64,000 nucleotides of DNA, from the IMG/VR virus record IMGVR_UViG_3300005736_000002, positions 7,678-71,677 of that record; one strand, 5' to 3'. The DNA is from a virus. Under the pieces are notes generated by a model. The model did no database searches. It had not been told where the DNA came from and saw only the letters and a list, made by a program, of their open reading frames with translations. How positions within the stretch are numbered: position 1 is the first letter of the stretch; every line of letters begins with the position of its first letter. This document shows positions 1 to 13,114 of this stretch, in pieces. Position numbers and translations under genes: made by a program.

Positions 1-479
1 AGTTCGTAATCCTCCTGCATTTTATTTTTAAATTCCAGAACTGTTTCTGAATTAATTGTTATTTCGTAACGGTCTTCTAAAGCAGAAAAATATTTAATCC
101 AGAAGCTCATTAATTGATCAGGTAGTAATGCTTCTAAATCCGCTGGATTTTTACACTTAGCCAGAAGACTGGTGATGAGGTTTTCTACTCTGAGGGGTTC
201 GTTAGGTACAATGTCTGCGGATTCCAGTAACGTACCCATTTCACTGTGGAAGATTGGATCTAAGTTAAATACATTAGACCACTTCTGTTCCCGTGAATGG
301 TGGTAAGTGGTACCTGCGTATACGAAGCCCATAACATCAGACCCTTTTCGATCACGCTGTTTAATGGCTAGACGATCAATTCCCGCAGTCAGAATCCGGT
401 TTCGTTCAAAGTACAAGTAACTCATTATCTTGTCTCTGAAACTAGACCGGAATGTACTGCTGAATACATCAGGCGGCAT
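1..479 (-). CDS. hypothetical protein downstream of helicase (N4 gp38-like position), truncated by window edge
   Basis: Not in ORF track. Hand translation MPPDVFSSTFRSSFRDKIMSYLYFERNRIL... stays open to position 1; GGAGG RBS; overlaps helicase stop. Confidence 0.7.
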   Translation of the reverse strand, partial: MPPDVFSSTFRSSFRDKIMSYLYFERNRILTAGIDRLAIKQRDRKGSDVMGFVYAGTTYHHSREQKWSNVFNLDPIFHSEMGTLLESADIVPNEPLRVENLITSLLAKCKNPADLEALLPDQLMSFWIKYFSALEDRYEITINSETVLEFKNKMQEDYE

Positions 480-1746
480 GAGCTAGTCCTCCATATTTCT
501 GTGGAAGGTTCCCGTATAGGATGACCTGCTGAGAGGCTCGGGAGATCGCAACATAAAGCATCCGGGCCACATCCGATGGGATGTTACAGCGACCAATGTC
601 GGGCAGGTTAATGAACACCTTATCGTAGGTACTGCCCTGACTTTTATGGATCGTGCACGAGTGCGTAGGTCGAAGATCGCCCCAGGTTTCTTTGATGTCG
701 AAGTACTTAGGCCATGCCTTTTGATCAGCGGCCTGTTTAAGTGCAACTTTCTCATCGTTTCGATTATCTGGGATGAACAACTGTACATTGGTGTTGTTCT
801 GGTCATACACAGTTACTTTGTAACCCTGTACACCGTACTCCACCGCCTCGTGGTAAGCCCCGGTTAAACGCACATGACTGTCCGTTTTAATGGATTTTTT
901 CTTACCTTCGATGTGCTTGTTGGTGATTAACTCCTCCTGCACATCAAGACGACCGGTGAAACCATTCAGACCACGAACGTAATCGTTGTACTGGTTCACT
1001 TTAGCGTTCGACCAGGCAATGATTTTGGAATTGTGATTCGGTTTTTTAAACTCCTGGTCAATCATCTGTTGGAAGGTAGGGCCATCCACATGGATGACTT
1101 TTTTACCGTCCGGTTGAATGAGAGGGAACTGTAGAGTCTGGACTGCATCTCTGAACGCATTAGCGTTTTTCTCGATGGCTCCTTCGTTACGCACCACTTC
1201 AGTTAAACGGGCTGTAAACAAGCCCTGAGTGAATACAGGCGTACTGGTTGAGCGTGTAGGTGCCAACTGGTAGGGATCACCTACATAGAGGATCTTACTG
1301 TTGACGACGCTTTTTCTGATCCAGTCCAATAAATCATCATCTATGAAGCTGGCTTCATCAATGAGCAGGATGCTGTTTTCAATCAGGTTTTGATCGTTGA
1401 CCGGCTTCAGTATTGTTTTACCCGTACTCCACTCATTGTGGACTTTCAGGCCCAGTATGCTGTGGATCGTTCTCACATCCTGACCTGTCTTATCACTCAG
1501 TACGTGCGCTGCTTTATGTGTGGTGGCACTCAACACCACATTTTTCAGTTTGTCTGCATGAATTCCCATGGTCGTATAGAGCATGAGTTTTTGTTTATTC
1601 ATACCAAACAGTAAGTGGTCTACCAGAGTGGATTTTCCCGTACCCGCTGGGCCTTCAATCACCATTTCGGTTTTAGTTGGGTCGATTAGGAAATCCAGAT
1701 ATTTGCCAATGGCTTCTTGTTGCCCAGCGTTCAGGGAAATAGTCAT
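469..1746 (-). CDS. SF1 (Dda/RecD-like) DNA helicase
   Basis: Walker A GPAGTGKS, LIDEAS, VGDPYQL, TIHKSQGSTY, LYVAISRA. Confidence 0.93.
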   Translation of the reverse strand: MTISLNAGQQEAIGKYLDFLIDPTKTEMVIEGPAGTGKSTLVDHLLFGMNKQKLMLYTTMGIHADKLKNVVLSATTHKAAHVLSDKTGQDVRTIHSILGLKVHNEWSTGKTILKPVNDQNLIENSILLIDEASFIDDDLLDWIRKSVVNSKILYVGDPYQLAPTRSTSTPVFTQGLFTARLTEVVRNEGAIEKNANAFRDAVQTLQFPLIQPDGKKVIHVDGPTFQQMIDQEFKKPNHNSKIIAWSNAKVNQYNDYVRGLNGFTGRLDVQEELITNKHIEGKKKSIKTDSHVRLTGAYHEAVEYGVQGYKVTVYDQNNTNVQLFIPDNRNDEKVALKQAADQKAWPKYFDIKETWGDLRPTHSCTIHKSQGSTYDKVFINLPDIGRCNIPSDVARMLYVAISRASQQVILYGNLPQKYGGLAHAA

Positions 1747-2099
1747 GAGAATACGCTCGTTTTTTCTTTTTCAGGGGGTTCCAGATCAGAAACAGGTACT
1801 CCCAGTAACTTTGCCATTTTATGTTTATGGTAGTTATCTAGGGTGATGTAACTGATTTTAGGTGATTCGTCTCTTTTGAATTCACGAATATGCGGAAAAT
1901 CTCCTTGATCCAGGATTTCTGCTTGTTCGATGATTTTATTGAACTCAGGTAGGAGTTCAGCCGGTATCACTAAACGTTCTCGCCAATTAAGATCGAGACT
2001 AATTACAGCCATCTTTTTACTTACTTTAAGTTCACTAACTTTGATGGCATTGGCCGCTTTCTGTACTTCTTCAGGCAGGTGAGAGTATTTATTACCCAT
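1743..2099 (-). CDS. hypothetical protein with a variant of the shared C-terminal motif (KHKMAKLLG)
   Basis: Tightly packed in operon; GAGG RBS. Confidence 0.75.
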   Translation of the reverse strand: MGNKYSHLPEEVQKAANAIKVSELKVSKKMAVISLDLNWRERLVIPAELLPEFNKIIEQAEILDQGDFPHIREFKRDESPKISYITLDNYHKHKMAKLLGVPVSDLEPPEKEKTSVFS

Positions 2100-2107
2100 A
2101 AGTCACC

Positions 2108-3253
2108 TCAGTCAGGGTATTCGATTATTTTTCCGAAGGGGTAGGTGAAAGTGTCATGCCCTCCGGAGTGGATGACCCAGATCACAGGAATGCCTGGATC
2201 TATGTCGTGCTTGTAAAAGTAGCCATCAGTGAAGATCACTAAGGCATTGGGTTTGTTTTCTTCTGCCCACTCCAGCACCTCTTTAACATCGGTGCCTCCG
2301 CGTCCTGTGAACTTAATACGACGGACATCTTCACCATCTTCAAGCTTATGGATCTCTTTGATGGAGGTGTCGAAGTCCAGTACCGTGGTTGTTTCCGGTT
2401 TTAAGTGATTTTGAATAGCATCAATCTCTGAGATAAACGTCATGAACTGCTGGTCTGTCACAGAGCCTGAAGTATCTACTGCTACTGAGATTTCGCCCAA
2501 GGATTCGCTGTAGAGGGTGGGTAGGTAGAAATCCGGTAGGAACCGGCGATTGAATTTTTTGAAGGAGTAATCCTCCGGGCCGAGCCCTCGCATGTAGCGG
2601 TAGAGGATTTCATACCAAGGTAACTTTGGGTTCAGCAGCTTGTCGATCGCTACCTGAATTTCACCTGGAATGGAGCCAGGGTCATCCTGAGCCATCCGCG
2701 CCTGGGTATTGGCCTTAATTACGATGTCTTCAATTTGAGACTGGATCTGCTGTGCCTGGTCTTTTGATACCGAGCTTTGGGAAGATCCCGACATATTCTT
2801 CATGTCTTGATTAAAGCCATTACGCCCCGGGTGATTCTGATCATTATGGATCTTGTTATAGACCTGATCAGAAGTCATATCATCGTACTGGTGATCCATC
2901 AGACCACCTTCCGGTAGCTTGTACCCGTGATCATCTAGCATGTTGTTAATCACGTAGTCGGTTGCGATGTTCCAGTCATTGAAGTCTTTATCATCGACTC
3001 GAGTCATGTGCTGGAACGCAACGTGCCATGCTTCGTGGACTAACACACCTACACGTTCATCTTCAGTCATTGACTCAAAGAAGTCCGGGTTAAACTGGAG
3101 TGTCAGCCCATTGGTGCAGGCCGTTGGAATAGACGAATCCCATGAGAACTTCAGAGAGAACAGTACCGTTGTGATGAACGTGCTGTTAGGGTTCTGCATG
3201 AGCTTGATCTTGGCACGATCGAGTAGACGGGTAATATCCTTAGTGGGTTTCAT
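2108..3253 (-). CDS. metallopeptidase plus vWA domain protein (N4 gp25-like)
   Basis: HEAWH zincin motif; vWA MIDAS DTSGS, GGTD, FTDGY. Confidence 0.9.
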   Translation of the reverse strand: MKPTKDITRLLDRAKIKLMQNPNSTFITTVLFSLKFSWDSSIPTACTNGLTLQFNPDFFESMTEDERVGVLVHEAWHVAFQHMTRVDDKDFNDWNIATDYVINNMLDDHGYKLPEGGLMDHQYDDMTSDQVYNKIHNDQNHPGRNGFNQDMKNMSGSSQSSVSKDQAQQIQSQIEDIVIKANTQARMAQDDPGSIPGEIQVAIDKLLNPKLPWYEILYRYMRGLGPEDYSFKKFNRRFLPDFYLPTLYSESLGEISVAVDTSGSVTDQQFMTFISEIDAIQNHLKPETTTVLDFDTSIKEIHKLEDGEDVRRIKFTGRGGTDVKEVLEWAEENKPNALVIFTDGYFYKHDIDPGIPVIWVIHSGGHDTFTYPFGKIIEYPD

Positions 3254-3264
3254 GGGAGTGTCCT

Positions 3265-3720
3265 TTAGGTAATGAGCCTTTTGGCCCGATAAAGTTTTTT
3301 ATACTCAGCCTGGTTATCCCAGGGCATGTGAGTAACTTCTTCTTTATGGTTCAGGATGAATGTTCGGAGTTCGTCCGGGGAATCGATCAACGCTATCAGT
3401 CGATCTAAATCAGGGTTTTGTTTGGAGTCATCCACTTCAGTGGTGTGCTTCTCTCCGGTTGCATCGAACCGTATGGTGGTTGTGCCTGGTCCGTACTCTG
3501 AGCCTTGCTGCCATTCCCAATCGCAGGGAATACCAGCATTAAGTAATTCTTCCTCACAGAAGAAGCTCCCATAGTTAACTTCATGAAAATCGAAGTAAGC
3601 TATGTCATGGTTTGAGACATCTAATTCATTAAACACCTCACCCATCCGGTTGAGGGTCTGTTTGACCAATTCGACATCATCTTTTTGTACGGACAGGCGA
3701 CAGAAGGTTCTATCGCCCAT
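3265..3720 (-). CDS. hypothetical protein ending in the shared motif (KKLYRAKRLIT)
   Basis: Lies between AAA and vWA genes; AGGAG RBS. Confidence 0.78.
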   Translation of the reverse strand: MGDRTFCRLSVQKDDVELVKQTLNRMGEVFNELDVSNHDIAYFDFHEVNYGSFFCEEELLNAGIPCDWEWQQGSEYGPGTTTIRFDATGEKHTTEVDDSKQNPDLDRLIALIDSPDELRTFILNHKEEVTHMPWDNQAEYKKLYRAKRLIT

Positions 3721-3729
3721 AGTAGACTC

Positions 3730-4752
3730 CTACAGTAGTTCCGCTGCGGACTCCGCAACCCAGTCCATTACCGCCTGGTTCTGTACCAGTGCTGGGTTTC
3801 GCTTCATGACATCACGTAGGGTGATGACCTGGAACTCAACCGGCATACGGTTAACGAACTTCATAAGCGGGGCAATGTTTGTGTCTTTGGCGTGATTACC
3901 GATGGAACCGCAGATCGCATACAACGTACCCGGTTCTTCTGGTACTGGGATCTTCTCTGCGTTGTTAATGAGCTTATCTATGGTAGGAAGGCTCTGGAAG
4001 ATCTTCACGTAGCTGATGAACTCACGCGCTACACCTTCAGACACGGTACCTGCCAATAAAGCCAGCTTACCTTTGATGTCTGCCTCACCTTTGATCAGTT
4101 TGGAAGCAAACTCCCAAGTACGTGGACACGCAAAAGTGCGGTCACTGTGATCCGGTTGAAAGGTGTACAGGCATTCTGGCTTAAAGCCGATGTACGACGT
4201 GATGCGGTAATCGATGTCGTTGGCTGAGGCCCAGTCCAACCAGGCTTCATGGTCGATGTCGAGTTCAAAGTGAACCAGACGTGACTGCAGGGCCGTACTC
4301 ATTTCATGCACGATGGCATTGTCTGAGTCTTTGTTACCGGCACAGGCCACCATGACATTCGTGTGAAGGTTATGTTCACCTACCTGTCTATCCAGGGTCA
4401 GTTTGTAAGCTGCTGCCTGAACTGCTTTAGGCGCAGAGTTAATTTCATCCAGGAACAACAACCATCCGTCTTTTCCGGCAGGTATATCATCCGATTCCAG
4501 AGGGAAGGTGTTCATAGGTGCGTAGTACGCTTTACCGGTTTCTTTATCAACGGTAGGAAAACCCATGAGATCTGTTGGATCACACTGACTCAGACGCTTA
4601 TCAATGATCTGAAGGTTATATTCTTCAGCAATCTGTTTGATGATGTCTGACTTACCGATCCCTGGTGAACCATGGATCATAGGTACCAGTTGTGCTTTCA
4701 GAGCTACTGGGATTTCTTCGATTGCAGTGGTGGTATTGACTGTAATTGCCAT
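3730..4752 (-). CDS. AAA+ ATPase (MoxR-like, N4 gp24-like)
   Basis: GSPGIGKS, LFLDE, AGN, STALQSR, CPRTWE; adjacent to vWA partner. Confidence 0.9.
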   Translation of the reverse strand: MAITVNTTTAIEEIPVALKAQLVPMIHGSPGIGKSDIIKQIAEEYNLQIIDKRLSQCDPTDLMGFPTVDKETGKAYYAPMNTFPLESDDIPAGKDGWLLFLDEINSAPKAVQAAAYKLTLDRQVGEHNLHTNVMVACAGNKDSDNAIVHEMSTALQSRLVHFELDIDHEAWLDWASANDIDYRITSYIGFKPECLYTFQPDHSDRTFACPRTWEFASKLIKGEADIKGKLALLAGTVSEGVAREFISYVKIFQSLPTIDKLINNAEKIPVPEEPGTLYAICGSIGNHAKDTNIAPLMKFVNRMPVEFQVITLRDVMKRNPALVQNQAVMDWVAESAAELL

Positions 4753-4817
4753 GGGACGTGTCCTTTAATTTTTAAATTGGTTTACTCGCTACGGGGTAAC
4801 ACCTGCCGGAGGGCAGG

Positions 4818-5189
4818 CTAAAACGCTTCTATTTCGAGGCAGTTCATTAACCATTCCCAGTAACCCAGTACGGTGTGACCGTTAGCTACTTCAAGCTTCC
4901 AATCCGTTCTTGGGTATCCAGGGTGTTCATCTTCAAAGGCATAAATGAGTGCCTGTAAATCATTACGGGACTTCACGCAACGGTGGTGTTTTTCCAATAG
5001 CCTACGGACACTCTGGCGGTAGTTGTAATGCAGAGCACGAGCGTCTTTTAGATCGCGCTTTAAGCAGCGAATCTGACGGGTCTGTTCGTTGACGATCTCG
5101 GCATCCAGATCAATGAGTGAGATCGGGGTTTTGTCCTGCAGGGTATCCAGGATGAAGTCGAGTTCTTCATTGGTCAGTATCTTGCCCAT
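4818..5189 (-). CDS. hypothetical protein
   Basis: ORF with GGAG RBS; C-terminal DWKLEVANGHTVLGYWEW resembles a phage-conserved motif. Confidence 0.7.
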   Translation of the reverse strand: MGKILTNEELDFILDTLQDKTPISLIDLDAEIVNEQTRQIRCLKRDLKDARALHYNYRQSVRRLLEKHHRCVKSRNDLQALIYAFEDEHPGYPRTDWKLEVANGHTVLGYWEWLMNCLEIEAF

Positions 5190-5385
5190 GGCTCTCTCTC
5201 CGGATCATATTTTGTATTTCAGTGATAAGGGTGTTGTGGTAATTCATGATGGCAGCGGTCACTAGACCGGATGGAGAATCGGGCAGATTATCAATGGCAT
5301 ATTTCATTGCTGCCTTTGCTGATTCGCTTTCACCAAACACCCCTAGTTTTTGTGTTTCAAGGGATTCAATTAGGGGGTTTTGCAT
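5167..5385 (-). CDS. hypothetical protein
   Basis: ORF coupled to the next gene. Confidence 0.6.
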   Translation of the reverse strand: MQNPLIESLETQKLGVFGESESAKAAMKYAIDNLPDSPSGLVTAAIMNYHNTLITEIQNMIRRESHGQDTDQ

Positions 5386-5535
5386 AAGGGTTACTCTTAC
5401 AGATTAAGTATCGGGTTCGTATAGTCGGATTTAGGTGATTTGGGATATTTAGAATATCGGTTCGTAGATTTCCGACTGATTCACAGACGGTGCCGGAGGC
5501 ACCTACTATCTATCCGCTGGAGTTTTTCCAGAATG

Positions 5536-5566
5536 GAAAAAATAAAGCCTCCCGAAGGAGGCTCTG
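5536..5566 (-). terminator. intrinsic terminator after RNAP2
   Basis: GAGCCTCC-TTCG-GGAGGCTT followed by TATTTTTT. Confidence 0.85.
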
Positions 5567-5568
5567 AA

Positions 5569-6762
5569 TTAGGAGAGTGCGTAGTTAGAGTTGCGTACTT
5601 TGTCTGCGATGTTGTCCCACTTAACGTAGGTCACAGGAGTCCCGTGCACATCCGACAGGATCTGCTCCAGGATCTTAGACTCAGCGATTTCTGCCAGGAT
5701 CTCCTTATACCAGTAACGTAAACGGTTAACGTGGTTAGGGTGGCACTTGAACTCGTCATGTACACAGACGATTGGGAACTCTCTGTAGCTCAGAGTTTCA
5801 ATGATCAGGTTACGCAGACGTACCAGGTCATTGTGGCTCAGTTTATCAATAGCTGTCTTGATGTTCTCTATATGAACCAGGGAGATGAAGTTATCTGTAT
5901 TGAGATCCACTGGATCACGGACACCTTCTAGCTCTACGTTGATGAAGCGTAGTGCTCTGCGGAGTTGAGTTTCATCGTGGTTACAACGACGGCTCATCTC
6001 ACGTACCACCATACCATCAACAGAGTGAGTGATATTGGCAGCAATGGATAGGCCTGTTTCTGAGCCCCGGTTCTCCATGAAGCGGTGAGTGAAGGTAGCG
6101 TGATCCAGCTCATCTACTTCTACTTTGATGTCCACTTCCTGCATGACCTTAACGTTCACGCAGAAGCCATCTGGGAGCGTCCAGGAGTGCGCTGGAGCCC
6201 ATGACTGCCAAGAAGCCATCATGTCATCCATTACTTCACAAGCACCTGGCGCAACGATCTTCTGAGCCTCGTAGAACTTTTCCAATTCCACAGTCTCTTC
6301 ACCGAAGATCTCTTTAGGCTTTGCCTTAGATCCGTAGAAGTGCGTCATCTGAGCCTGCTTCACTTCTTTACGCAGGGGAGCAACCTGCACACCTTCATGC
6401 TTCAGGAGCTGGTTCATCTCTTCAGTGGTGGTTGAGTAGATGTCAGCGCGTACATTTGGGTCAATCAGACCTGTATTGTTCGCTGTGACTTCACAACCGA
6501 TCAGGCAGCTCATGATCTGCAGACCAGAGGAACACGCATCAAAGCCAACCAGGTGGCCTGAAGCGATGCCTGCTTGCGCTTCACGCAGAGCCATGACTGC
6601 TTTCAGGTACAGGACGGGTTCATCAGCGTCGTCCAGCAGTTCTTCGAGTTTATTTAGGTTGGAATCCACCCAGGCAAGGCGATCTTCAAACAGGGCTTTG
6701 TCTAGGCCAAACTGGTTAGCGATGTCGAGTTTAATGTATTCAAATCCTGTGAAGTGGTCCAT
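5569..6762 (-). CDS. N4-like RNA polymerase II subunit 2 (gp16-like)
   Basis: True start MDHFTGFEYIKLDIANQFGLDK (track start is over-extended); motif A FDACSSGLQ, motif B RKEVKQAQMTHFYGS, motif C VHDEF. Confidence 0.93.
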   Translation of the reverse strand: MDHFTGFEYIKLDIANQFGLDKALFEDRLAWVDSNLNKLEELLDDADEPVLYLKAVMALREAQAGIASGHLVGFDACSSGLQIMSCLIGCEVTANNTGLIDPNVRADIYSTTTEEMNQLLKHEGVQVAPLRKEVKQAQMTHFYGSKAKPKEIFGEETVELEKFYEAQKIVAPGACEVMDDMMASWQSWAPAHSWTLPDGFCVNVKVMQEVDIKVEVDELDHATFTHRFMENRGSETGLSIAANITHSVDGMVVREMSRRCNHDETQLRRALRFINVELEGVRDPVDLNTDNFISLVHIENIKTAIDKLSHNDLVRLRNLIIETLSYREFPIVCVHDEFKCHPNHVNRLRYWYKEILAEIAESKILEQILSDVHGTPVTYVKWDNIADKVRNSNYALS

Positions 6763-6763
6763 T

Positions 6764-7337: not shown

Positions 7338-7574
7338 TTAATCGGTAATGAGTTTCAGGACTTCGTATTGTTTCTGTGCTTCTGAGATTCTGGCGCGAAG
7401 GGTTATGAGATCTTGTCTCTCTTCTTTATCCATCTCATAATGAGCGAGTCTTTGATTTATTCTTATTATTTGACGAGTACACTCGTAGTAACACTGCGTT
7501 GCTGTTTTAGTGGTTGAGCTTCCGAGTATCGGGATACTTTCGTCCACCTTTTTTGAGGCTACCTTCTCGTTCAT
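7338..7574 (-). CDS. small early protein, LxLI-motif family
   Basis: AAGGA RBS before ATG at 7574; ends KQYEVLKLITD. Confidence 0.72.
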   Translation of the reverse strand: MNEKVASKKVDESIPILGSSTTKTATQCYYECTRQIIRINQRLAHYEMDKEERQDLITLRARISEAQKQYEVLKLITD

Positions 7575-7758
7575 GACGTAAGTCCTTATTAGGTTTCGCT
7601 TCCCAGGTTTCATCCGCTAACCACACTGACGGCGGCATGGATGCGTTTAATTTATCCAGGTTGGACTGTTGTTCGTGTTGCGGAGGGAGTCCCAGGATGA
7701 TACGACGTAACTCTTCTTCTTTCTTTTGTTGACGCTTATTCACTTTCTTTTTCTTCAT
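7507..7758 (-). CDS. small basic early protein (ELRRIILGLPP)
   Basis: GGAG RBS; motif shared with 9010..9402. Confidence 0.65.
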   Translation of the reverse strand: MKKKKVNKRQQKKEEELRRIILGLPPQHEQQSNLDKLNASMPPSVWLADETWEAKPNKDLRHEREGSLKKGGRKYPDTRKLNH

Positions 7759-7761
7759 GGT

Positions 7762-7965
7762 TCACTCCAGAATCAAAAGCTCTAAATCAATAGATTTAAT
7801 ACGGTGCTTAATACGTTGTATTTTGTCTTCGATCTTTTCGTAGATTTCACGAGAAGTGGGACAGTTACGCTTGCGTCCTATAAGTTGTTGTTGAGCCCAC
7901 TTGAGATCCCACTCTAATGATTTTTTCTGGCGTTTCAGATAGTAAATTCTTTTATGAACTAGCAT
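7762..7965 (-). CDS. small early helical protein, LxLI-motif family
   Basis: GGAG RBS; ends KSIDLELLILE. Confidence 0.75.
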   Translation of the reverse strand: MLVHKRIYYLKRQKKSLEWDLKWAQQQLIGRKRNCPTSREIYEKIEDKIQRIKHRIKSIDLELLILE

Positions 7966-7968
7966 GGT

Positions 7969-8241
7969 TCACTCCGTTATGAGTTCCCACATCTCGTGTT
8001 CTTTAAGGGCTCTGTTCAACCTTTCTAACTTACGCAGTAGGTGTTCTTTTTCTTTTTCATCGTGGATGGGGAAATTTAGGCGTTCTTTGATTCTCATTAC
8101 TTCGAGTTTGGTGGATAGCACCTCAGCCTTTAGGGAGGTCTTGTCCGGTGAATGTTTCAAGGTCTTTGAGTAGCTCACGTTTCTCTGCCTCCATACGGGT
8201 GCTTTCACGTACATCGTTGTAGTAAGCCTGACCGTCGGCAT
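7969..8241 (-). CDS. small early helical protein, LxLI-motif family (start uncertain)
   Basis: Ends KEHEMWELITE; track start overlaps the neighbour, so the true start is probably further downstream. Confidence 0.65.
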   Translation of the reverse strand: MPTVRLTTTMYVKAPVWRQRNVSYSKTLKHSPDKTSLKAEVLSTKLEVMRIKERLNFPIHDEKEKEHLLRKLERLNRALKEHEMWELITE

Positions 8242-8326
8242 AGGGTAGGTGCTTTCTGAGGTCTGCTATACGTTGATCCAAGGCATCCAGTTTCAGCAGG
8301 ACATCAGCTTTTAGCGAATGGGTCAT
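8123..8326 (-). CDS. small early protein
   Basis: Coupled ORF, helical composition. Confidence 0.65.
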   Translation of the reverse strand: MTHSLKADVLLKLDALDQRIADLRKHLPYADGQAYYNDVRESTRMEAEKRELLKDLETFTGQDLPKG

Positions 8327-8615
8327 GATCGTGCCCTTTAGGTTGTATCAGCCCCATGAGTGCTGCTTTGTTTTGTTTGTACATTTCCCAGCGTTGGAGC
8401 AACTGGTAAGAGTCCAGAGCTTTTTCCCCGGTATGCTGAACCAGCATTCCTGTATCACCGTCAATCAATATTCGGGTGTTATAACAAGCTTGTTGTAGCG
8501 GGTGGGCAGGCTGGTAGGCACTTTCTATGTTTCTTAGTAACTCAGTTAAATGCGTTTCAAGGATGGCTACACGGGTTTCCAGATAGGTCACCCTATCCAT
8601 TTGTATCGGGTTCAT
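8304..8615 (-). CDS. small early protein, LxLI-motif family
   Basis: NKAALMGLIQ near C-terminus; AGGAG RBS. Confidence 0.75.
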   Translation of the reverse strand: MNPIQMDRVTYLETRVAILETHLTELLRNIESAYQPAHPLQQACYNTRILIDGDTGMLVQHTGEKALDSYQLLQRWEMYKQNKAALMGLIQPKGHDHDPFAKS

Positions 8616-8829
8616 GAGGATAGACTCCTATTAGGTCATGTATTTTTCGACGTTTAACGATTCTGTCGATCTGATCCAGTTTTTCCTGGTAGATTTTTAA
8701 GGCTTTAGGATGCGGGCAGTGGTTGGCTTTCAGTTCTTCGATCATGGACTTATGTTCTTCCAGTTGATCTACAGTCCATCGTTCATTCGGAGTCCCTATT
8801 TCTGTTGCTTTCATTCGGATCTCCTGCAC
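8593..8829 (-). CDS. small early helical protein, LxLI-motif family
   Basis: KRRKIHDLIG; probable start at second Met. Confidence 0.75.
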   Translation of the reverse strand: MQEIRMKATEIGTPNERWTVDQLEEHKSMIEELKANHCPHPKALKIYQEKLDQIDRIVKRRKIHDLIGVYPHEPDTNG

Positions 8830-9013
8830 CGATCAGATCCAGCATTTCATACTGTTTCATGTAGGCATTGATGTCGTTGATACGTTGTTCATAAGGTTCC
8901 CTGGCATCAGCGTAATGCTCAGGAGGAGAGAGGAGTGTGAGGACTTTATTGGCGTTCACTAGCTCCTCATTCAGTTCCTCTCGAGTGAGTGTATCGAGGG
9001 TTCTCATGGTCAT
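8783..9013 (-). CDS. small early helical protein, LxLI-motif family
   Basis: KQYEMLDLIG. Confidence 0.75.
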   Translation of the reverse strand: MTMRTLDTLTREELNEELVNANKVLTLLSPPEHYADAREPYEQRINDINAYMKQYEMLDLIGAGDPNESNRNRDSE

Positions 9014-9402
9014 TTATCCTGGTCAAAGAGTGAGACGAAATCCTCTCCTGGAGTGAGGTCTATTTGTACCTTAGCCATGTTAGGGCGGTCAGGTAGCATA
9101 GGACTCAGGCCCAGTATCAGGCGCTTCAGTTTACGTTGTTCACGTATATCCCACTGGGTCAGGAATTCATTGGTTTTAGGGTGACGGTAGCTTTCTCCCT
9201 CACGGGATTGAAGTTCCTCTTTCATGACTTTTATCCAGAAGACACGGTGATAGTACTGGGTAGTCATGTGACCGAACCGGTCATCGATGAACATCTGCAA
9301 GGCGTTCTCAATGTGTTTGGTATCCATGTCATAAAGAGAAGTTTCTTGGGTACCGTTTATCCAGACGGGTGCGTACCCGTCATCTGGGTTAGTTGGAATC
9401 AT
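9010..9402 (-). CDS. early hypothetical protein (KLKRLILGLSP)
   Basis: GGAGG RBS; ATGA overlap. Confidence 0.75.
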   Translation of the reverse strand: MIPTNPDDGYAPVWINGTQETSLYDMDTKHIENALQMFIDDRFGHMTTQYYHRVFWIKVMKEELQSREGESYRHPKTNEFLTQWDIREQRKLKRLILGLSPMLPDRPNMAKVQIDLTPGEDFVSLFDQDK

Positions 9403-9641
9403 GCGAGCCTCCCATCAGATTTGTAGTAGTCAACACCGATGAGTCCCAATGCTTCTCGTTTTTTATTAGAGAGTTTGAGTTGTTTCAGGTGTTTGCGTAT
9501 TTTTCTTCGTTTAGTACGAGAAGGTTCGTTTTCAAGAGCTGCTTCCAGACGATCTACATGTTGCAGGAAGCGGTACTCAGGGCAATCAGGAGGTAGATCT
9601 TTTCTCTTACTTACTATGGGTGGTGCTGCTTTGTGCATCAT
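9399..9641 (-). CDS. small basic early protein, LxLI-motif family
   Basis: KKREALGLIG. Confidence 0.72.
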   Translation of the reverse strand: MMHKAAPPIVSKRKDLPPDCPEYRFLQHVDRLEAALENEPSRTKRRKIRKHLKQLKLSNKKREALGLIGVDYYKSDGRLA

Positions 9642-9649
9642 AATAACCC

Positions 9650-10021
9650 CTACACTGTGGTTATGATCTGAGCCCCTAGAGCAGGGGACTTGATGACAGA
9701 ATGTCCATAGTTCATTGCGAAGTTAATGTCTTTCGCTTTACGTCGAGCTTCCGCCGGGTCTACTACAGGTTTGGGTGGATTGATCAGATCCAGGATCTTC
9801 TGCTCTTTCCTACGCTTCAGACACCTTTCCAGCTTTCGTATATGGTTCTGTATGGCTCTGCGTTTATGTTTACCTCGAGCTTTCTGAAGGGCTGTACGTT
9901 GGACTGCCAGAGCCTCCTCAACACGCTGTATAGGATCGAAGGGTGTTCTTTTAGAGCTTTTAGTAAAATCTGTGTCCATCTGCAGTGAATCAATTATGTG
10001 GTCGGTATTAGAGACGGCCAT
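9650..10021 (-). CDS. early helical protein, LxLI-motif family
   Basis: KEQKILDLIN. Confidence 0.75.
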   Translation of the reverse strand: MAVSNTDHIIDSLQMDTDFTKSSKRTPFDPIQRVEEALAVQRTALQKARGKHKRRAIQNHIRKLERCLKRRKEQKILDLINPPKPVVDPAEARRKAKDINFAMNYGHSVIKSPALGAQIITTV

Positions 10022-10181
10022 GTGTACCCCCTATCAGATCAAGCATCTGAGCTTTCTTTAACTTACCTTCGAAGTATCGAATACGTTTCTGGTGACGGTC
10101 TTTTATATGCCGTTTCTTGGCAGCTTTTTTACGTTGAGTATGGTATTCAATACGTCTTTCAAGAAATTCAAAGTGTGTCAT
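10008..10181 (-). CDS. 57-aa early helical protein, LxLI-motif family (not in ORF track)
   Basis: Hand translation MTHFEFLERRIEYHTQRKKAAKKRHIKDRHQKRIRYFEGKLKKAQMLDLIGGTHGRL; AGGAG RBS; resembles 10168..10368. Confidence 0.8.
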   Translation of the reverse strand: MTHFEFLERRIEYHTQRKKAAKKRHIKDRHQKRIRYFEGKLKKAQMLDLIGGTHGRL

Positions 10182-10368
10182 TAGGTGCTCCTATCATCTG
10201 AAGTAACTGAGCTTCTTTCAGCTTCTCAGTCCAATACTTAATCGAGTTCTCGTGGTGAGTCTTTGACCAGGGTCTAATGGCCCGTTTGAGGTGTTCTTGG
10301 TGGAACGTGATACGTTTCTTTAACCAAGTAATGCTCTGGTCGTTCTCTGGGTTTATTCTGGGTTTCAT
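10168..10368 (-). CDS. small early helical protein, LxLI-motif family
   Basis: KLKEAQLLQMIG; ATGA overlap with RNAP1. Confidence 0.8.
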   Translation of the reverse strand: MKPRINPENDQSITWLKKRITFHQEHLKRAIRPWSKTHHENSIKYWTEKLKEAQLLQMIGAPNDTL

Positions 10369-11264
10369 ACCCCCTCCACAATCTCTTTATCGTGTAGTTC
10401 AATGATGGCCTTTCTGAACGCATTACCCTGGGTAGATACGTGGTATCCCTGGGCGTATGTGCGGCCTCGTTTATCGACTTTGTGCGTGAGCCAGAACTCA
10501 TTACCTTGATGGATCAAGTCCCTGTAGATCAGGTAGGAGTCCTTCACGAACTTCTCCCATTGCTCTTTACGTTCTGGGTCTTCGATCAGTTTTTTAGGTA
10601 TCTCAGAGTATGTCTTTAGCAGCTCTACATTGAGGCTCAGAGGCACCTGATTGAACCGGTTAATACTGTCCAGACAGATATCATCTTCATGGAAATTAAC
10701 GTTACCGCCTAAGATAAGAGAGTCACGTTTAGTAAGGTAACCGCTGTCGTAGTTACTGCGGACTTTCTTCGGTGGAACAATCATGGGTGGTAAGTATTTG
10801 GTCTGAGCTATGAAGCGTTGTAATCCTTCGCTTGGCGTGATGCGTGGACGTACCATCAGAGAGGCTTGTTTGCTCTCTTTTATGATGTCATAGATGTCCA
10901 GATCACACAGGACTGCAAGGATCTCAGCGGAGGTCTTAACGCCGTCTCCTTTGTCTGAGAAACCCAGTTTTCCTGCGAGTTGACCGACAACCTGGGTGAA
11001 CAGAGTGGTCTTCTCGAGCACCAGGATTTCCATGATGACTTCCATCACAATCTCTTCCAGATCGAGGATGAGGAGCTGCTCTACACGGATACGTTTGGAG
11101 TCGTGATACTCCGGTGCTTTGTTGATGTAATCAATCAGCAATAGCTTACCTTCAGTAATGATCTGGGCTGCACCGTCTGTCTCTTCAATCTCCTTTTTGA
11201 TGGCTTTACGGATGTTGGATTTAGAGAACATTTTCTCAATGTCTTCTTGGAATTCAGGCAGCAT
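10365..11264 (-). CDS. N4-like RNA polymerase II subunit 1 (gp15-like)
   Basis: YLPPMIVPP, HKVDKRGRTYAQGYHVSTQG (T7-like DxRGR motif). Confidence 0.92.
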   Translation of the reverse strand: MLPEFQEDIEKMFSKSNIRKAIKKEIEETDGAAQIITEGKLLLIDYINKAPEYHDSKRIRVEQLLILDLEEIVMEVIMEILVLEKTTLFTQVVGQLAGKLGFSDKGDGVKTSAEILAVLCDLDIYDIIKESKQASLMVRPRITPSEGLQRFIAQTKYLPPMIVPPKKVRSNYDSGYLTKRDSLILGGNVNFHEDDICLDSINRFNQVPLSLNVELLKTYSEIPKKLIEDPERKEQWEKFVKDSYLIYRDLIHQGNEFWLTHKVDKRGRTYAQGYHVSTQGNAFRKAIIELHDKEIVEGV

Positions 11265-11268
11265 GGGC

Positions 11269-11484
11269 TTAGTCCTTATGAATTAACTTGAGGCTATCGT
11301 AGTAGGGTTTTAGGAGTTCAAGTTCTTTACGGGCTTTTCTCATAGAAGCTGCATTGTCGAAAGCGCAGCTAGGACAGAAAGTAGGGTGATGGTCACAACC
11401 AACACAGACTTCAGGTGTTTGTACTTTACTGTCCTGGTATTGCATTTGTTCCAGAGCTATGTCGAGTGATTTGATTAGGCTCAT
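11269..11484 (-). CDS. small Cys-rich early protein, LxLI-motif family
   Basis: CVGC...CPSC; ends YYDSLKLIHKD. Confidence 0.72.
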   Translation of the reverse strand: MSLIKSLDIALEQMQYQDSKVQTPEVCVGCDHHPTFCPSCAFDNAASMRKARKELELLKPYYDSLKLIHKD

Positions 11485-11578
11485 GGTTCATTTCCTCTTC
11501 AAACACCTGGTTCGAGATCCCAATAAAAAGGGCCAACAGTGTGGCCCCTATAAGTAACTTTCCGACGGTCAGTCCCAT
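11426..11578 (-). CDS. small membrane protein
   Basis: GGAGG RBS before MGLTVGKLLIGATLLALFIGIS (one TM helix). Confidence 0.6.
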   Translation of the reverse strand: MGLTVGKLLIGATLLALFIGISNQVFEEEMNHEPNQITRHSSGTNAIPGQ

Positions 11579-11979
11579 GGTGGTGAATCCTCCGGTACGT
11601 GCTGTTCTATCCTGGGTCGGTACTTCACAACCCAGTGCAGGATGTCTTTCTGACGACAAATGTCGATCATGTGCTTGGTGCCTTTACTCACCTCATCCCA
11701 GAAGATAATGGCAGCGTCACAGACTTCAGCCATCTCCTCATTTCTGAGATAACCTGCACGTTTCCCGTGCTTGTCCCAGTTGGCTGGATACTTCTCAAGT
11801 CCGAGGCTATATTCCTTCGCTATACGCTCTCCCAGTAGGTCTGCACCTCGAGCCCCACCACTGACAATACACACACCTTGGTTCTCCAGTTCTTTCTCTT
11901 TAGCGAACTGACAAACTATCTTTTCCATCAGTGGATAGTCATCAAACTCACGACTACCGGCAATACAAATACGAAACAT
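11569..11979 (-). CDS. SLOG/YspA-like (DUF2493) protein
   Basis: IAGSREF, VSGGARGAD, ANWDKHGKRAGYLRNEEM, FWDEVSKGTKHMI. Confidence 0.88.
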   Translation of the reverse strand: MFRICIAGSREFDDYPLMEKIVCQFAKEKELENQGVCIVSGGARGADLLGERIAKEYSLGLEKYPANWDKHGKRAGYLRNEEMAEVCDAAIIFWDEVSKGTKHMIDICRQKDILHWVVKYRPRIEQHVPEDSPPWD

Positions 11980-12001
11980 AGTCTTCTCCTTAACTTGATA
12001 C

Positions 12002-12022
12002 CCAACACCTGCGCGAATGCGC
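12002..12022 (-). promoter_or_regulatory. candidate vRNAP hairpin promoter
   Basis: Template (+) strand CC-N7-GCGC-GAAT-GCGC; one of three identical copies. Confidence 0.7.
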
Positions 12023-12058
12023 TCGTCTATATAAACCTCGCGGAGGCGAGGCTAGTGA

Positions 12059-12253
12059 TTATTCAGGTACGTCGATACCTATCAGGAAGGCTTCAAATTT
12101 GATTTGCTTGATGTTTTCTTCTAGTTCTTTGATTCTATCTAGGTGCTTGCGTCTACGTTTACCCATAGTTTCTTGGGCACGTTCCTGATTCCATTCCATC
12201 CAGTGCCTATTATGATTAACTATTTCCTGGGCTCTTTTTGCTGTTCTTATCAT
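12059..12253 (-). CDS. small early helical protein, LxLI-motif family
   Basis: KQIKFEAFLIG. Confidence 0.72.
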   Translation of the reverse strand: MIRTAKRAQEIVNHNRHWMEWNQERAQETMGKRRRKHLDRIKELEENIKQIKFEAFLIGIDVPE

Positions 12254-12266
12254 GAGTTATTCCTAC

Positions 12267-12458
12267 TTAACCGGTGATCAGTTGAAGGGTATCTATCTTT
12301 GTCTGCATCTCAGCGAGTTCTTCATCAGGTACCGTGAATAAACAGTTATCACAGTGCTCCTCAGTACAACCGGCTTTGCGCTTTATCTGACTGCAGATGG
12401 TTTCGTTCATGTCTGCTTCCAGGTAGGTAATACACATCAGATCTATCTTATGTTTCAT
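12267..12458 (-). CDS. small Cys-rich early protein (paralog 1), LxLI-motif family
   Basis: IC...C...CDNCLF; ends KIDTLQLITG. Confidence 0.75.
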   Translation of the reverse strand: MKHKIDLMCITYLEADMNETICSQIKRKAGCTEEHCDNCLFTVPDEELAEMQTKIDTLQLITG

Positions 12459-12684
12459 GACTGTCTCCTGAGTGGATCAAGTTAACGACATCCAGTTTCT
12501 TCTGGACTTCAGTTAGATCTATTCGGTTGTGATACAGAGGGCATTTAATACACATACCCCCATGACAAGCTTCCTGAGACAGATGACTGATCGCATCACA
12601 GATGTCTTCAAAATCATTCTCAGGGTTAGCCCCAATCACAGTATTAAGTTTCTCGATGATGGTGAGATCTACTTCATTACTCAT
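12448..12684 (-). CDS. small Cys-rich early protein (paralog 2), LxLI-motif family
   Basis: IC...C...CIKCPL; KKLDVVNLIH. Confidence 0.78.
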   Translation of the reverse strand: MSNEVDLTIIEKLNTVIGANPENDFEDICDAISHLSQEACHGGMCIKCPLYHNRIDLTEVQKKLDVVNLIHSGDSHET

Positions 12685-12913
12685 GACTACCCCCTGGATG
12701 TATTAAGTTCACTACATTCAACTGTTTTTGGATCTTTTTATAGTTGTGGGTTTTATGGGCAAGAGGACACTGATCACAAGGTACATCAGGAGGACAGCAA
12801 CCACGCTCGTTGACCAACTCACAGATGCTTTTTGAGTCTTCTCTGGTTAGTTCAGAGTCCTGTCTGAGTAGATTATTAATCTTAGTGATAACAGTTAAAT
12901 CTATCTGGCTCAT
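12677..12913 (-). CDS. small Cys-rich early protein (paralog 3), LxLI-motif family
   Basis: IC...CC...CDQCPL; KQLNVVNLIH. Confidence 0.78.
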   Translation of the reverse strand: MSQIDLTVITKINNLLRQDSELTREDSKSICELVNERGCCPPDVPCDQCPLAHKTHNYKKIQKQLNVVNLIHPGGSHE

Positions 12914-12922
12914 GATTTACTC

Positions 12923-13114
12923 CTACTTAATTTCGTTTATCAGATCGATTACTACCAGCTTTAGACTGAGCGTTGTTTCAGACATTTCAGCTCTTTTAAT
13001 AAGCTTATCCAGGCGCTTCTGTCTTTCTTCTTTGCGCATTTCAATTAACGCCTGGTGATTACTAATACCCTTAACTAAAGCTCGGGCTTTGACGCTCTCC
13101 ACAGTAATGTCCAC
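12923..13114 (-). CDS. small early protein, LxLI-motif family
   Basis: AAGGAG RBS plus GTG; LKLVVIDLIN. Confidence 0.72.
   Translation of the reverse strand: MDITVESVKARALVKGISNHQALIEMRKEERQKRLDKLIKRAEMSETTLSLKLVVIDLINEIK

What the first reader, a model, noticed from the sequence alone, without database searches (positions are those of the whole stretch)
1743..4752. AAA+ ATPase and metallopeptidase-vWA operon interleaved with motif-bearing ORFs: probable hub for the adaptors
Seen: gene order is AAA+ ATPase, ORF ending KKLYRAKRLIT, HEXXH-peptidase/vWA, ORF with KHKMAKLLG. Established: MoxR-type AAA+ proteins act with vWA partners that deliver clients, and this pair is conserved in N4-like phages with unknown function. 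Inference: the two embedded ORFs carry the same terminal helix as the 7-13 kb array, so this unfoldase-peptidase pair is the best candidate for the shared receptor. That would make it a phage-encoded, adaptor-programmed protein remodelling or degradation machine.
Basis: inference. Interest (0 to 1): 0.8.

Follow-up and report, generated by a model that had tools for sequence, protein, structure and literature searches.

The report
Phage MoxR-vWA pair with partner
This marine N4-like phage carries the usual, still unexplained ATPase plus protease/vWA gene pair, with a conserved small gene wedged between them whose Leu-Ile end-helix is predicted to dock on the ATPase, which gives a testable first partner for that pair.

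Summary
The gene order is as described. 3730-4752(-) is an AAA_5/MoxR-like ATPase. 2108-3253(-) is a DUF2201_N/DUF2201 zincin-vWA protein with conserved HExxH and MIDAS. Together they are the N4 gp24/gp25-type core pair.

The two interleaved ORFs are old, syntenic families of their own, not array members. ORF151 lies between AAA and vWA in 21 of 71 non-redundant related loci. Its family has 1003 representative clusters, and the terminal Leu is kept in 148 of 154. Its match to the array motif is borderline (7.8 bits, rank 3 of 67, shuffle p 0.0046). ORF118's KLLG is not a match (2.4 bits, p 0.21).

A three-chain co-fold supports, but does not show, docking of ORF151's Leu-Ile helix on AAA residues 309-340. 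The score was 0.61 against a best control of 0.15, and one of three runs scored 0.00.

The array occurs in the window and one close relative only. The pair occurs in 858 phage records. That the 16 array microproteins use this pair as a hub is therefore untested and unsupported by co-occurrence (about 12%).

Earlier unchecked notes of this scan describe similar small-protein sets beside this pair on other DNA.

The parts
3730..4752 (-). AAA+ ATPase, 340 aa, AAA_5/MoxR-like (N4 gp24 type)
   Evidence: Pfam AAA_5 E 5.5e-6, 26.9 bits over the cut-off of 22. AAA_3 and bpMoxR fall below their cut-offs. PHROG 1297 'ATPase' E 1e-126. A profile of 71 sequences hits midasin AAA domains at E 1.9e-11.
4648..4671 (-). 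Walker A, GSPGIGKS (residues 28-35)
   Evidence: Translation. S29, P30, G33, K34 and S35 are nearly invariant in 71 sequences.
4444..4449 (-). Walker B acidic pair, D102 E103
   Evidence: Translation. Invariant in 71 sequences. N140, R158 and R211 are also invariant.
3733..3828 (-). C-terminal helices of the ATPase (residues 309-340), the predicted docking surface for the ORF151 end-helix
   Evidence: Interface list. W331 is kept in 21 of 21 ORF151-bearing and 48 of 50 ORF151-lacking sequences.
3265..3720 (-). ORF151: unnamed family with a ferredoxin-like N-domain and C-terminal helices. Conserved occupant of the AAA-vWA junction.
   Evidence: No Pfam, NCBIfam or PADLOC hit. AF2 model pLDDT 83.8. 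Homologue found between AAA and vWA in 8 of 8 loci and in 21 of 71 non-redundant loci. 1003 representative clusters at E<=0.001.
3268..3312 (-). ORF151 terminal helix QAEYKKLYRAKRLIT (residues 137-151) with the Leu-Ile end
   Evidence: Helix 137-150 in the model. L149 is invariant in 27 sequences. In 154 representatives L149 is kept in 148, and position 150 is I, L or V in 152. Residues 139, 142-143 and 145-151 lie in the predicted interface.
2108..3253 (-). Zincin-vWA protein, 381 aa (N4 gp25 type): DUF2201_N metallopeptidase-like domain plus DUF2201 vWA-like domain
   Evidence: Pfam E 5.9e-38 and 2.6e-32. PHROG 1314 E 4.3e-135, labelled 'HNH endonuclease' there.
3023..3037 (-). HExxH (HEAWH, residues 73-77)
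   Evidence: Translation. H73, E74, H77 and H82 are nearly invariant in 72 sequences.
2462..2476 (-). MIDAS DxSxS (DTSGS, residues 260-264)
   Evidence: Translation. D260, S262, S264, T321 and D343 are invariant in 72 sequences.
1743..2099 (-). ORF118: a second unnamed conserved family, sited between vWA and the helicase
   Evidence: No Pfam hit at E<=0.01. Alignment of 24 sequences with invariant P46, A60, E61, Y90 and K94. A strict family signature is present after vWA in 23 of 67 loci. Absent from the closest relative L011. AF2 pLDDT 81.1.
1800..1841 (-). Last long helix of ORF118, ending KMAKLLG, followed by 19 more residues
   Evidence: Helix 87-99 in the model. Array matrix 2.4 bits, p 0.21.
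469..1746 (-). Dda-like SF1 helicase. Its start overlaps the ORF118 stop by 4 nt.
   Evidence: Pfam AAA_30 and UvrD_C_2. PHROG 325 E 5.6e-104.
5544..5565 (-). Terminator-like hairpin plus T-run after the RNAPII large-subunit gene. Likely upstream limit of the transcription unit.
   Evidence: It is the only minus-strand terminator-like site in 1-5700.
7338..13114 (-). Array of small early ORFs ending in hydrophobic-x-L-I-(G/T/H/N/Q). Context only, not part of the block.
   Evidence: 11 strict hits. 16 aligned tails. The motif is kept in L011 orthologues.

Best explanation
The block is the N4 gp24/gp25-type module. It consists of a MoxR-like (AAA_5) AAA+ ATPase and a co-chaperone-like protein that joins a zincin HExxH domain to a vWA/MIDAS domain. 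It sits in a tightly packed middle-gene unit ahead of the Dda helicase.

By analogy with MoxR-vWA pairs, the ATPase ring would remodel a client that the vWA domain holds through its metal site, and the HExxH domain may cut it. In this marine clade two conserved small genes have joined the block.

ORF151 lies between the two genes. It is most likely a physical partner of the ATPase, acting as regulator, adaptor or substrate. It would dock through its nearly invariant Leu-Ile-capped last helix on the ATPase C-terminal helices. ORF118 is a separate family with no demonstrated link to that helix.

Shown: domain identities, conserved catalytic motifs, synteny, and motif conservation. Inferred: the binding (model only), the remodelling and cleavage mechanism (analogy), and the client (unknown). 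Virion or replication-complex assembly is the proposal in print for the same pair in jumbo phages.
For: Domains and motifs:
- Domain hits. Walker A/B, N140, R158 and R211 are conserved in 71 ATPases.
- HExxH and the full MIDAS set are conserved in 72 vWA proteins.
- N4 genes 24 and 25 are core middle genes (PMC4193335, passages).
- Iyer et al. 2021 describe the MoxR plus metallopeptidase-vWA pair in group 2.2 jumbo phages as a chaperone/co-chaperone pair. They propose virion assembly with proteolytic processing (PMC7824862, passage).

Packing: spacers of 9, 11 and 8 nt plus a 4-nt overlap. No internal minus-strand terminator-like site.

ORF151:
- A homologue lies between AAA and vWA in 8 of 8 loci found with ORF151 itself. 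The same holds in 21 of 71 non-redundant AAA-centred loci.
- The family has 1003 representative clusters. L149 is kept in 148 of 154, and position 150 is I, L or V in 152 of 154.

Co-fold of AAA + vWA + ORF151:
- The model supports binding but does not show it. Score 0.61, best of 3 controls 0.15.
- That mark was reached by 58 of 80 solved complexes and by 2 of 110 mismatched pairs. These counts hold only roughly, because I used my own alignments and three chains.
- The runs agree in at least 0% of contacts. Partner pLDDT is at least 78.
- The interface is ORF151 residues 139, 142-143 and 145-151 against AAA residues 309-340.
- The nearest solved relative covers only AAA residues 14-109 (midasin), so a pass from memory is unlikely.
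Against: - One of the three co-fold runs scored 0.00. With the vWA chain replaced, the score fell to 0.15, so the docking is not robust.
- The ATPase was folded as a monomer, so the surface used may be buried or used otherwise in a ring.
- That surface is equally conserved in the 50 ATPases whose genomes lack ORF151, so it has another primary role.
- 23 of 71 loci have AAA and vWA directly adjacent, and 27 carry other inserts. The junction also accepts unrelated genes, and ORF151 is dispensable for the pair.
- The 21 AAA/ORF151 pairs vary too little at the interface for a covariation test.
- Strict MoxR Pfam models (AAA_3, bpMoxR) fall below their cut-offs.
- No experimental datum exists for any of these genes.
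Confidence: 0.55

Rival explanations
1. The ATPase/vWA pair is the common receptor for the Leu-Ile end-helix of all ~16 early microproteins at 7.3-13.1 kb. These would act as exchangeable adaptors or competitors that programme what the machine remodels or degrades.
For: - A matrix built only from ORF151-family tails of other genomes ranks array members 7338, 8783 and 10008 as the top three non-self hits among 83 window genes. The first two are anchored on the Leu-Ile. Array members against non-array genes give Mann-Whitney p 1.7e-5.
- The co-fold puts exactly that helix of ORF151 on the ATPase.
- In another N4-like contig (L074), 9 (+2) paralogous small ORFs lie inside the AAA-vWA gap.
- Unchecked notes of this scan report similar sets beside this pair on other DNA.
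Against: - No array protein was co-folded or otherwise tested.
- The array occurs in the window and L011 only. Strict tails on the coding strand number 5 of 64 ORFs in L011 and 0-4 in each of the other 88 loci. The opposite-strand control gives 0-6.
- The pair is core to N4-like phages and occurs in 858 phage records, so the two do not co-vary.
- The hydrophobic position two before the Leu, typical of the array, is K, Q, T or R in most ORF151 homologues.
- The Mann-Whitney result may reflect shared basic, helical composition.
- An earlier follow-up on the array itself attributes most copies to two expanded paralogue families (e1-6170133).
Confidence: 0.12
2. No functional link. ORF151 and ORF118 are accessory genes lodged at permissive junctions between core genes. 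The Leu-Ile end is a fold-internal or helix-capping feature of the ORF151 family. The co-fold pass is a false positive in which an amphipathic helix is laid on an exposed hydrophobic surface of a monomeric ATPase.
For: - The junction is variable. Of 71 loci, 23 have the genes adjacent, 21 carry ORF151, 17 carry other inserts of 30-1000 nt, and 10 carry inserts over 1000 nt.
- A different 61-85 aa family also recurs at the junction.
- ORF118 is missing in the closest relative.
- One co-fold run scored 0.00, and the score was 0.15 without the vWA chain.
- The docking surface is conserved without ORF151.
- L149 is no more conserved than core-fold residues such as W70, G63 and Q137.
Against: - ORF151 homologues were found nowhere else. 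All 8 loci retrieved with ORF151 itself have it between AAA and vWA. Where large inserts occur (L009/L025, L067) it stays directly before vWA.
- Only 2 of 110 mismatched pairs reached the co-fold mark. Both partner-swap controls scored 0.00.
Confidence: 0.28
3. The Leu-Ile end-helix, in ORF151 and in the array, is read by something other than the ATPase. Candidates are a host protein, or the vWA MIDAS or peptidase site through a nearby acidic residue or the C-terminal carboxylate.
For: - Many array tails carry D or E within 1-5 residues after Leu-Ile.
- vWA MIDAS sites bind carboxylates (established knowledge, recalled).
- The co-fold shows a few ORF151 contacts with vWA residues 16-22, 65 and 110.
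Against: - No contact with the MIDAS region (residues 260-343) was listed.
- ORF151 tails after Leu-Ile are mostly T, A, G, N, S or Q followed by P, not acidic.
- No host candidate was examined.
Confidence: 0.05

Closest known systems
Coliphage N4 genes 24 and 25 (unknown/ATPase and vWFA-domain protein), core genes of N4-like phages (Schitoviridae)
   Same: Same two families (PHROG 1297 and 1314). Same genome type, with a 3520-aa virion RNAP and a split RNAPII. Middle-gene position before the replication genes. Function unknown (PMC4193335, passages).
   Different: In three checked relatives (Vibrio phage D497, Erwinia phage S6, IMG/VR locus L001) the two genes are 8-11 nt apart. Here a 151-aa conserved gene lies between them and a 118-aa one follows. 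I did not fetch the N4 record itself.
MoxR AAA+ ATPase plus metallopeptidase-vWA pair of group 2.2 jumbo phages (Iyer et al. 2021, PMC7824862)
   Same: Same architecture: a vWA co-chaperone fused to an N-terminal metallopeptidase domain beside a MoxR-like ATPase. The authors predict a chaperone/co-chaperone role in virion assembly with proteolytic processing (passage). tblastn with this ATPase does reach jumbo and rV5-like phages at 26-32% identity.
   Different: That paper names no third small partner in the passages I read. The assembly role is a proposal, not a test.
Cellular and archaeal-virus MoxR-vWA pairs (RavA-ViaA; the Acidianus two-tailed virus pair cited in PMC7824862; CbbQ-CbbO and NorQ-NorD, recalled)
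   Same: An AAA+ ring works with a vWA/MIDAS cofactor on a dedicated client complex. The abstract start of PMC3893208 (search listing) describes chaperone-like maturation roles.
   Different: Those vWA partners lack the HExxH domain. The ATPase here passes only the AAA_5 Pfam cut-off.
Midasin/Rea1
   Same: Nearest solved sequence relative of the ATPase (E 1.9e-11 over residues 14-109). Also an AAA_5-type motor acting with a MIDAS domain.
   Different: A giant eukaryotic single-chain ring with no peptidase. Similarity is limited to the nucleotide-binding core.
SspB-type adaptors tethered to ClpX by a short C-terminal peptide (recalled, not tested)
   Same: This is what the hub idea works like: several proteins share a short terminal element that docks on one unfoldase.
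   Different: No sequence or fold relation. Here the predicted site is the C-terminal helices of a MoxR-like ATPase. Only one protein (ORF151) has any in-silico support.
YubB/Api92 ferredoxin-like domain (DUF1281)
   Same: Best structural match of the ORF151 N-domain: 2ijr_A, Z 6.4, rmsd 3.5 A, 92 residues aligned. Several BFVD hits carry that name at E 2.5e-3 to 0.15.
   Different: Z below 8 may mean only a common arrangement. There is no Pfam hit, and the C-terminal helices are not covered.

Membership tests
AAA+ ATPase, AAA_5 / MoxR-like group | Walker A GxxGxGK[ST] and Walker B hhhhDE | tested here: met
   GSPGIGKS at residues 28-35 and LLFLDE at 98-103. These are nearly invariant or invariant in 71 sequences.
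AAA+ ATPase, AAA_5 / MoxR-like group | Pfam model over its curated cut-off | tested here: met
   AAA_5 at 26.9 bits against a cut-off of 22, and AAA at 22.0 against 21.2.
MoxR sensu stricto (Pfam AAA_3 / bpMoxR) | Pfam AAA_3 or bpMoxR over its cut-off | tested here: not met
   AAA_3 at 21.1 bits against 27, and bpMoxR at 16.5 against 27. I therefore write 'MoxR-like' rather than calling it a member.
AAA+ ATPase, AAA_5 / MoxR-like group | Sensor and arginine-finger residues conserved | tested here: inconclusive
   N140, R158 and R211 are invariant in 71 sequences. Assigning them to sensor 1, arginine finger and sensor 2 is from recall, not from a structure.
AAA+ ATPase, AAA_5 / MoxR-like group | Ring formation and ATP hydrolysis | not testable with these tools
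   Needs biochemistry or a multimer model.
MoxR-vWA pair | A vWA/MIDAS partner gene next to the ATPase gene | tested here: met
   vWA lies 467 nt downstream with ORF151 between. The two are adjacent or near-adjacent in all 71 non-redundant loci that hold both genes.
DUF2201_N/DUF2201 zincin-vWA (N4 gp25 type) | Both Pfam domains over their cut-offs | tested here: met
   131.5 bits against 23.2, and 112 bits against 26.4.
DUF2201_N/DUF2201 zincin-vWA (N4 gp25 type) | HExxH metal-binding motif | tested here: met
   HEAWH at residues 73-77 plus H82, nearly invariant in 72 sequences. Catalysis is untested.
DUF2201_N/DUF2201 zincin-vWA (N4 gp25 type) | MIDAS DxSxS ... T ... D | tested here: met
   D260, S262, S264, T321 and D343 are invariant in 72 sequences.
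N4 gp24/gp25 core pair of Schitoviridae | Same phage protein families in an N4-like genome | tested here: met
   PHROG 1297 E 1e-126 and PHROG 1314 E 4.3e-135. A 3520-aa vRNAP ORF. RNAPII subunits. tblastn hits to named Schitoviridae. N4 itself was not fetched.
Leu-Ile end-helix array of this phage (7338-13114) | hydrophobic-x-L-I-[GTHNQ] in the last 22 residues | tested here: not met
   ORF151 has KRLIT and ORF118 has AKLLG. Neither is among the 14 hits.
Leu-Ile end-helix array of this phage (7338-13114) | Score with a 13-column matrix of the 16 array tails (ORF151) | tested here: inconclusive
   7.8 bits, rank 3 of 67, shuffle p 0.0046. This falls within the leave-one-out range of members, -6.2 to 21.4. 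The reverse matrix picks array members first.
Leu-Ile end-helix array of this phage (7338-13114) | Score with the same matrix (ORF118) | tested here: not met
   2.4 bits, rank 9 of 67, p 0.21. The helix is followed by 19 further residues.
YubB/Api92 ferredoxin-like domain (ORF151 N-domain) | Fold match and family model | tested here: inconclusive
   VIA Z 6.4, rmsd 3.5, 92 residues aligned to 2ijr_A. BFVD hits named YubB at E 2.5e-3 and weaker. No Pfam hit.

The most novel reading that the evidence does not exclude
The C-terminal helices of the N4 gp24-type ATPase are a receptor for a Leu-Ile-capped helix. ORF151 is its resident ligand across a large clade of marine N4-like phages. This lineage has expanded ~16 early microproteins that present the same helix to the same site. 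That would make the long-unexplained gp24/gp25 pair an adaptor-programmed remodelling or proteolysis machine.
Probability: 0.12. Interest if true: 0.8.

Novelty: new variant of a known kind. Interest (0 to 1): 0.5.

Why it matters
Genes 24 and 25 are 2 of only 14 core genes of N4-like phages, and the same pair occurs in jumbo, rV5-like and other phages. Its function is still a guess (PMC4193335, PMC7824862).

ORF151 is an unnamed protein that is syntenic in every locus where its context was seen. Its best-kept feature is predicted to plug into the ATPase, so it gives a concrete bait and point mutants for finding what the pair does. It also offers a cheap test of the recurrent idea that small phage proteins with shared end-helices are read by this pair.

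Three full-text searches listed nothing whose title or abstract start concerned a third gene between these two. The searches were 'N4-like/vWFA/ATPase/gp24', 'DUF2201' and 'MoxR/bacteriophage/VWA'. I read passages of only two of the listed papers. Supplementary tables were closed and may list such orthologues.

Tried and rejected
1. DNA-level origin of the motif (overlap with the next gene's ribosome-binding site). In some array members the I-G codons do form AGGAG. However, the Leu and Ile codons vary in the third position, and the distance to the next start varies from 0 to 42 codons. Rejected as a general cause.

2. ORF118's KLLG as a helix-turn-helix. Only 1 of 24 family members hits Sigma70_r3 (E 5.8e-4), and 1 of 24 hits HTH_8 (E 0.12). 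The AF2 model has a long helix 87-99 followed by a 4-residue helix. Not supported.

3. ORF151 and ORF118 as relatives sharing an end-helix. hhalign gives probability 0.2%. Rejected.

4. Foldseek against the PDB for ORF151 found no match at E<=0.001. NCBIfam and PADLOC gave nothing over their cut-offs for any of the four proteins. The ESM Atlas returned only unnamed viral clusters.

5. Covariation across the predicted interface. The 21 pairs are nearly invariant there. The one deviant pair (L067) changes on both sides, but that is an anecdote.

6. Test by phages lacking the pair. This is not possible, because the pair is core.

7. The BFVD fold search for ORF118 gave uncharacterised proteins of other N4-like phages only. 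The best was Salmonella phage FSL SP-058, E 7.6e-4.

8. A scan of all loci ORFs with the ORF151-derived matrix was not done (see the last paragraph).

Full report
WHAT IS THERE. The window is 64 kb of a 71,677-base virus record that is about 97% complete. It is an N4-like phage. It has a 3520-aa ORF at 40717-51279(+) and two RNAPII subunit genes at 10365-11264(-) and 5569-6957(-). No tRNA gene was found. Its DNA is only distantly similar to known Schitoviridae.

All genes from 14 kb down to 1 are on the minus strand. Within the finding the order is:
- AAA+ ATPase, 3730-4752
- ORF151, 3265-3720
- zincin-vWA protein, 2108-3253
- ORF118, 1743-2099
- Dda-like helicase, 469-1746

The spacers are 9, 11 and 8 nt, followed by a 4-nt overlap. 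The only minus-strand terminator-like site in 1-5700 lies upstream, at 5565-5544. One transcription unit is therefore likely but not shown.

THE PAIR. The ATPase passes the Pfam AAA_5 and AAA cut-offs but not AAA_3 or bpMoxR. It matches PHROG 1297 at E 1e-126. Its profile finds midasin AAA domains as the nearest solved chains (E 1.9e-11, residues 14-109). Walker A, Walker B, N140, R158 and R211 are conserved in 71 sequences.

The second protein has DUF2201_N and DUF2201 (E 5.9e-38 and 2.6e-32). HExxH(+H82) is nearly invariant, and the MIDAS set D260, S262, S264, T321 and D343 is invariant in 72 sequences. Its PHROG (1314) and some GenBank records call it 'HNH endonuclease', which the domains do not support.

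N4 genes 24 and 25 are among 14 core genes of N4-like phages and are middle genes (PMC4193335, passages read). tblastn finds the ATPase in 858 phage records, including rV5-like and jumbo phages. Iyer et al. 2021 describe the same architecture in group 2.2 jumbo phages as a chaperone/co-chaperone pair. They propose virion assembly with proteolytic processing (PMC7824862, passage read).

THE MOTIF CLAIM. The array is real. The pattern hydrophobic-x-L-I-[GTHNQ] in the last 22 residues hits 14 of 384 ORFs. Eleven of those lie at 7338-13114(-). Codon usage and variable tails argue for a protein-level feature.

Neither embedded ORF matches that pattern. With a matrix of 16 array tails:
- ORF151 scores 7.8 bits at its very end, rank 3 of 67 non-array genes, shuffle p 0.0046.
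- ORF118 scores 2.4 bits, rank 9 of 67, p 0.21.

A reverse matrix was made only from ORF151-family tails of other genomes. It ranks array members 7338 (11.8 bits), 8783 (8.0) and 10008 (4.6) first among the other 82 window genes. Array against non-array genes gives Mann-Whitney p 1.7e-5. Shared basic, helical composition may contribute to that result.

THE TWO EMBEDDED ORFS ARE FAMILIES OF THEIR OWN. ORF151 has 6 homologues in the word-indexed search. Its profile finds 1003 representative clusters at E<=0.001 and 253 at E<=1e-30. None carries a Pfam name.

In all 8 loci retrieved with ORF151 itself, the homologue lies between AAA and vWA. Among 71 non-redundant AAA-centred loci that hold both genes:
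- 23 have the genes under 30 nt apart
- 21 have an ORF151 homologue between them
- 17 have other inserts of 30-1000 nt
- 10 have larger inserts

The end-helix is the family's signature. L149 is one of 7 invariant columns in 27 sequences. In 154 representatives it is L in 148, and the next position is I (121), L (20) or V (11).

The AF2 model (pLDDT 83.8) shows a ferredoxin-like N-domain and helices 115-129 and 137-150. The best structural matches are weak: Api92, Z 6.4, an unnamed BFVD entry at E 9.1e-5, and an Acinetobacter phage Presley protein at E 1.0e-3.

ORF118 belongs to a different family. In an alignment of 24 sequences, P46, A60, E61, Y90 and K94 are invariant. Its strict signature follows vWA in 23 of 67 loci. 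It is absent from the closest relative L011. It is unrelated to ORF151 by profile comparison (probability 0.2%). Its KLLG ends helix 87-99 and is followed by 19 residues.

CO-OCCURRENCE. Strict motif tails on the coding strand number 5 of 64 small ORFs in L011, whose ATPase is 84% identical. They number 0-4 in each of the other 88 loci, against 0-6 on the opposite strand. Of the 90 loci held, at least four pairs are the same contig fetched twice.

The array is therefore confined to this phage and one close relative, while the pair is universal. The pair clearly works without the array.

One other N4-like contig (L074) has 9 (+2) paralogous small ORFs inside the AAA-vWA gap. Unchecked notes of this scan describe comparable sets beside this pair on other DNA. 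I treat these as leads only.

THE DOCKING TEST. I co-folded AAA, vWA and ORF151, each with its own alignment, with ORF151 as the scored partner. Verdict: the model supports binding but does not show it.
- Score 0.61 (runs 0.66, 0.61, 0.00). The best of 3 controls scored 0.15.
- That mark was reached by 58 of 80 solved complexes and by 2 of 110 mismatched pairs. These counts hold only roughly here.
- The runs agree in at least 0% of contacts. Partner pLDDT is at least 78.
- The interface is ORF151 residues 139, 142-143 and 145-151 (the Leu-Ile helix) plus a few N-domain residues, against ATPase residues 309-340. There are minor contacts to vWA residues 16-22, 65 and 110.

The 0.15 control was the run with the vWA chain replaced, so the placement depends on context or on chance. 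The ATPase surface, including W331, is as conserved in the 50 sequences from ORF151-lacking loci as in the 21 from ORF151-bearing loci. The interface is too invariant for covariation.

VERDICT. ORF118 does not carry the motif. Nothing ties the 16 array proteins to the pair.

My odds:
- ORF151 binds the ATPase through this helix: about 45-55%.
- The pair is the hub for the array: about 12%.
- No functional link at all: about 28%.

The thing is a new variant of a known kind: the gp24/gp25 pair with a conserved third gene.

Noticed in passing
L011 (whole locus; contig range 163794-184246 of a 197,716-base record): The closest relative of this phage (ATPase 84%, vWA 86% identical) lies inside a 197.7-kb contig titled as a Neptuniibacter MAG. 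This is either a host hint or a chimeric or mis-binned contig.
   Followed up: no
L074:11353-15209: In another N4-like contig the 4158-nt gap between the ATPase and vWA genes holds 14 ORFs of 60 aa or more. Nine (+2) of them are paralogues by blastp at E<=1e-3, and they have their own conserved end segment.
   Followed up: partly
L010:8103-9999 and L008:1915-4147: The ATPase gene of L010 and the RNAPII large-subunit gene of L008 each appear as two ORFs separated by about 0.9-1 kb. This suggests an inserted element such as an intron, an intein or a homing-endonuclease gene.
   Followed up: no
window 2108-3253(-); PHROG 1314; records OZ195710.1 and NC_020849.1: The zincin-vWA gene family is labelled 'HNH endonuclease' in PHROGs and in deposited phage annotations. 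Pfam shows DUF2201_N/DUF2201 and no HNH domain, so this is a propagated mis-annotation.
   Followed up: partly
L004:9811-9996, L021:10987-11244, L028:8801-9028 and others: A second recurrent small family (61-85 aa, tails of the type YH.KM.EYY...) sits directly after the ATPase gene in many related loci, with or without ORF151. It is absent from the window.
   Followed up: no
window 40203-40517(+): A 104-aa ORF just before the virion RNAP gene has the best non-array score with the array matrix (10.7 bits, 18 residues from its end). It is probably chance.
   Followed up: no
window 5544-5565(-): A strong terminator-like hairpin (9 pairs, T-run) lies right after the RNAPII large-subunit stop. It separates that gene from the block that holds the ATPase.
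   Followed up: no
L009:9512-9997 and L008:7969-8475: Two unrelated-looking ORFs next to the module in other contigs also end in hydrophobic-x-L-I-[GN] plus a short tail. One lies directly before ORF151 and the other directly before the ATPase gene.
   Followed up: no
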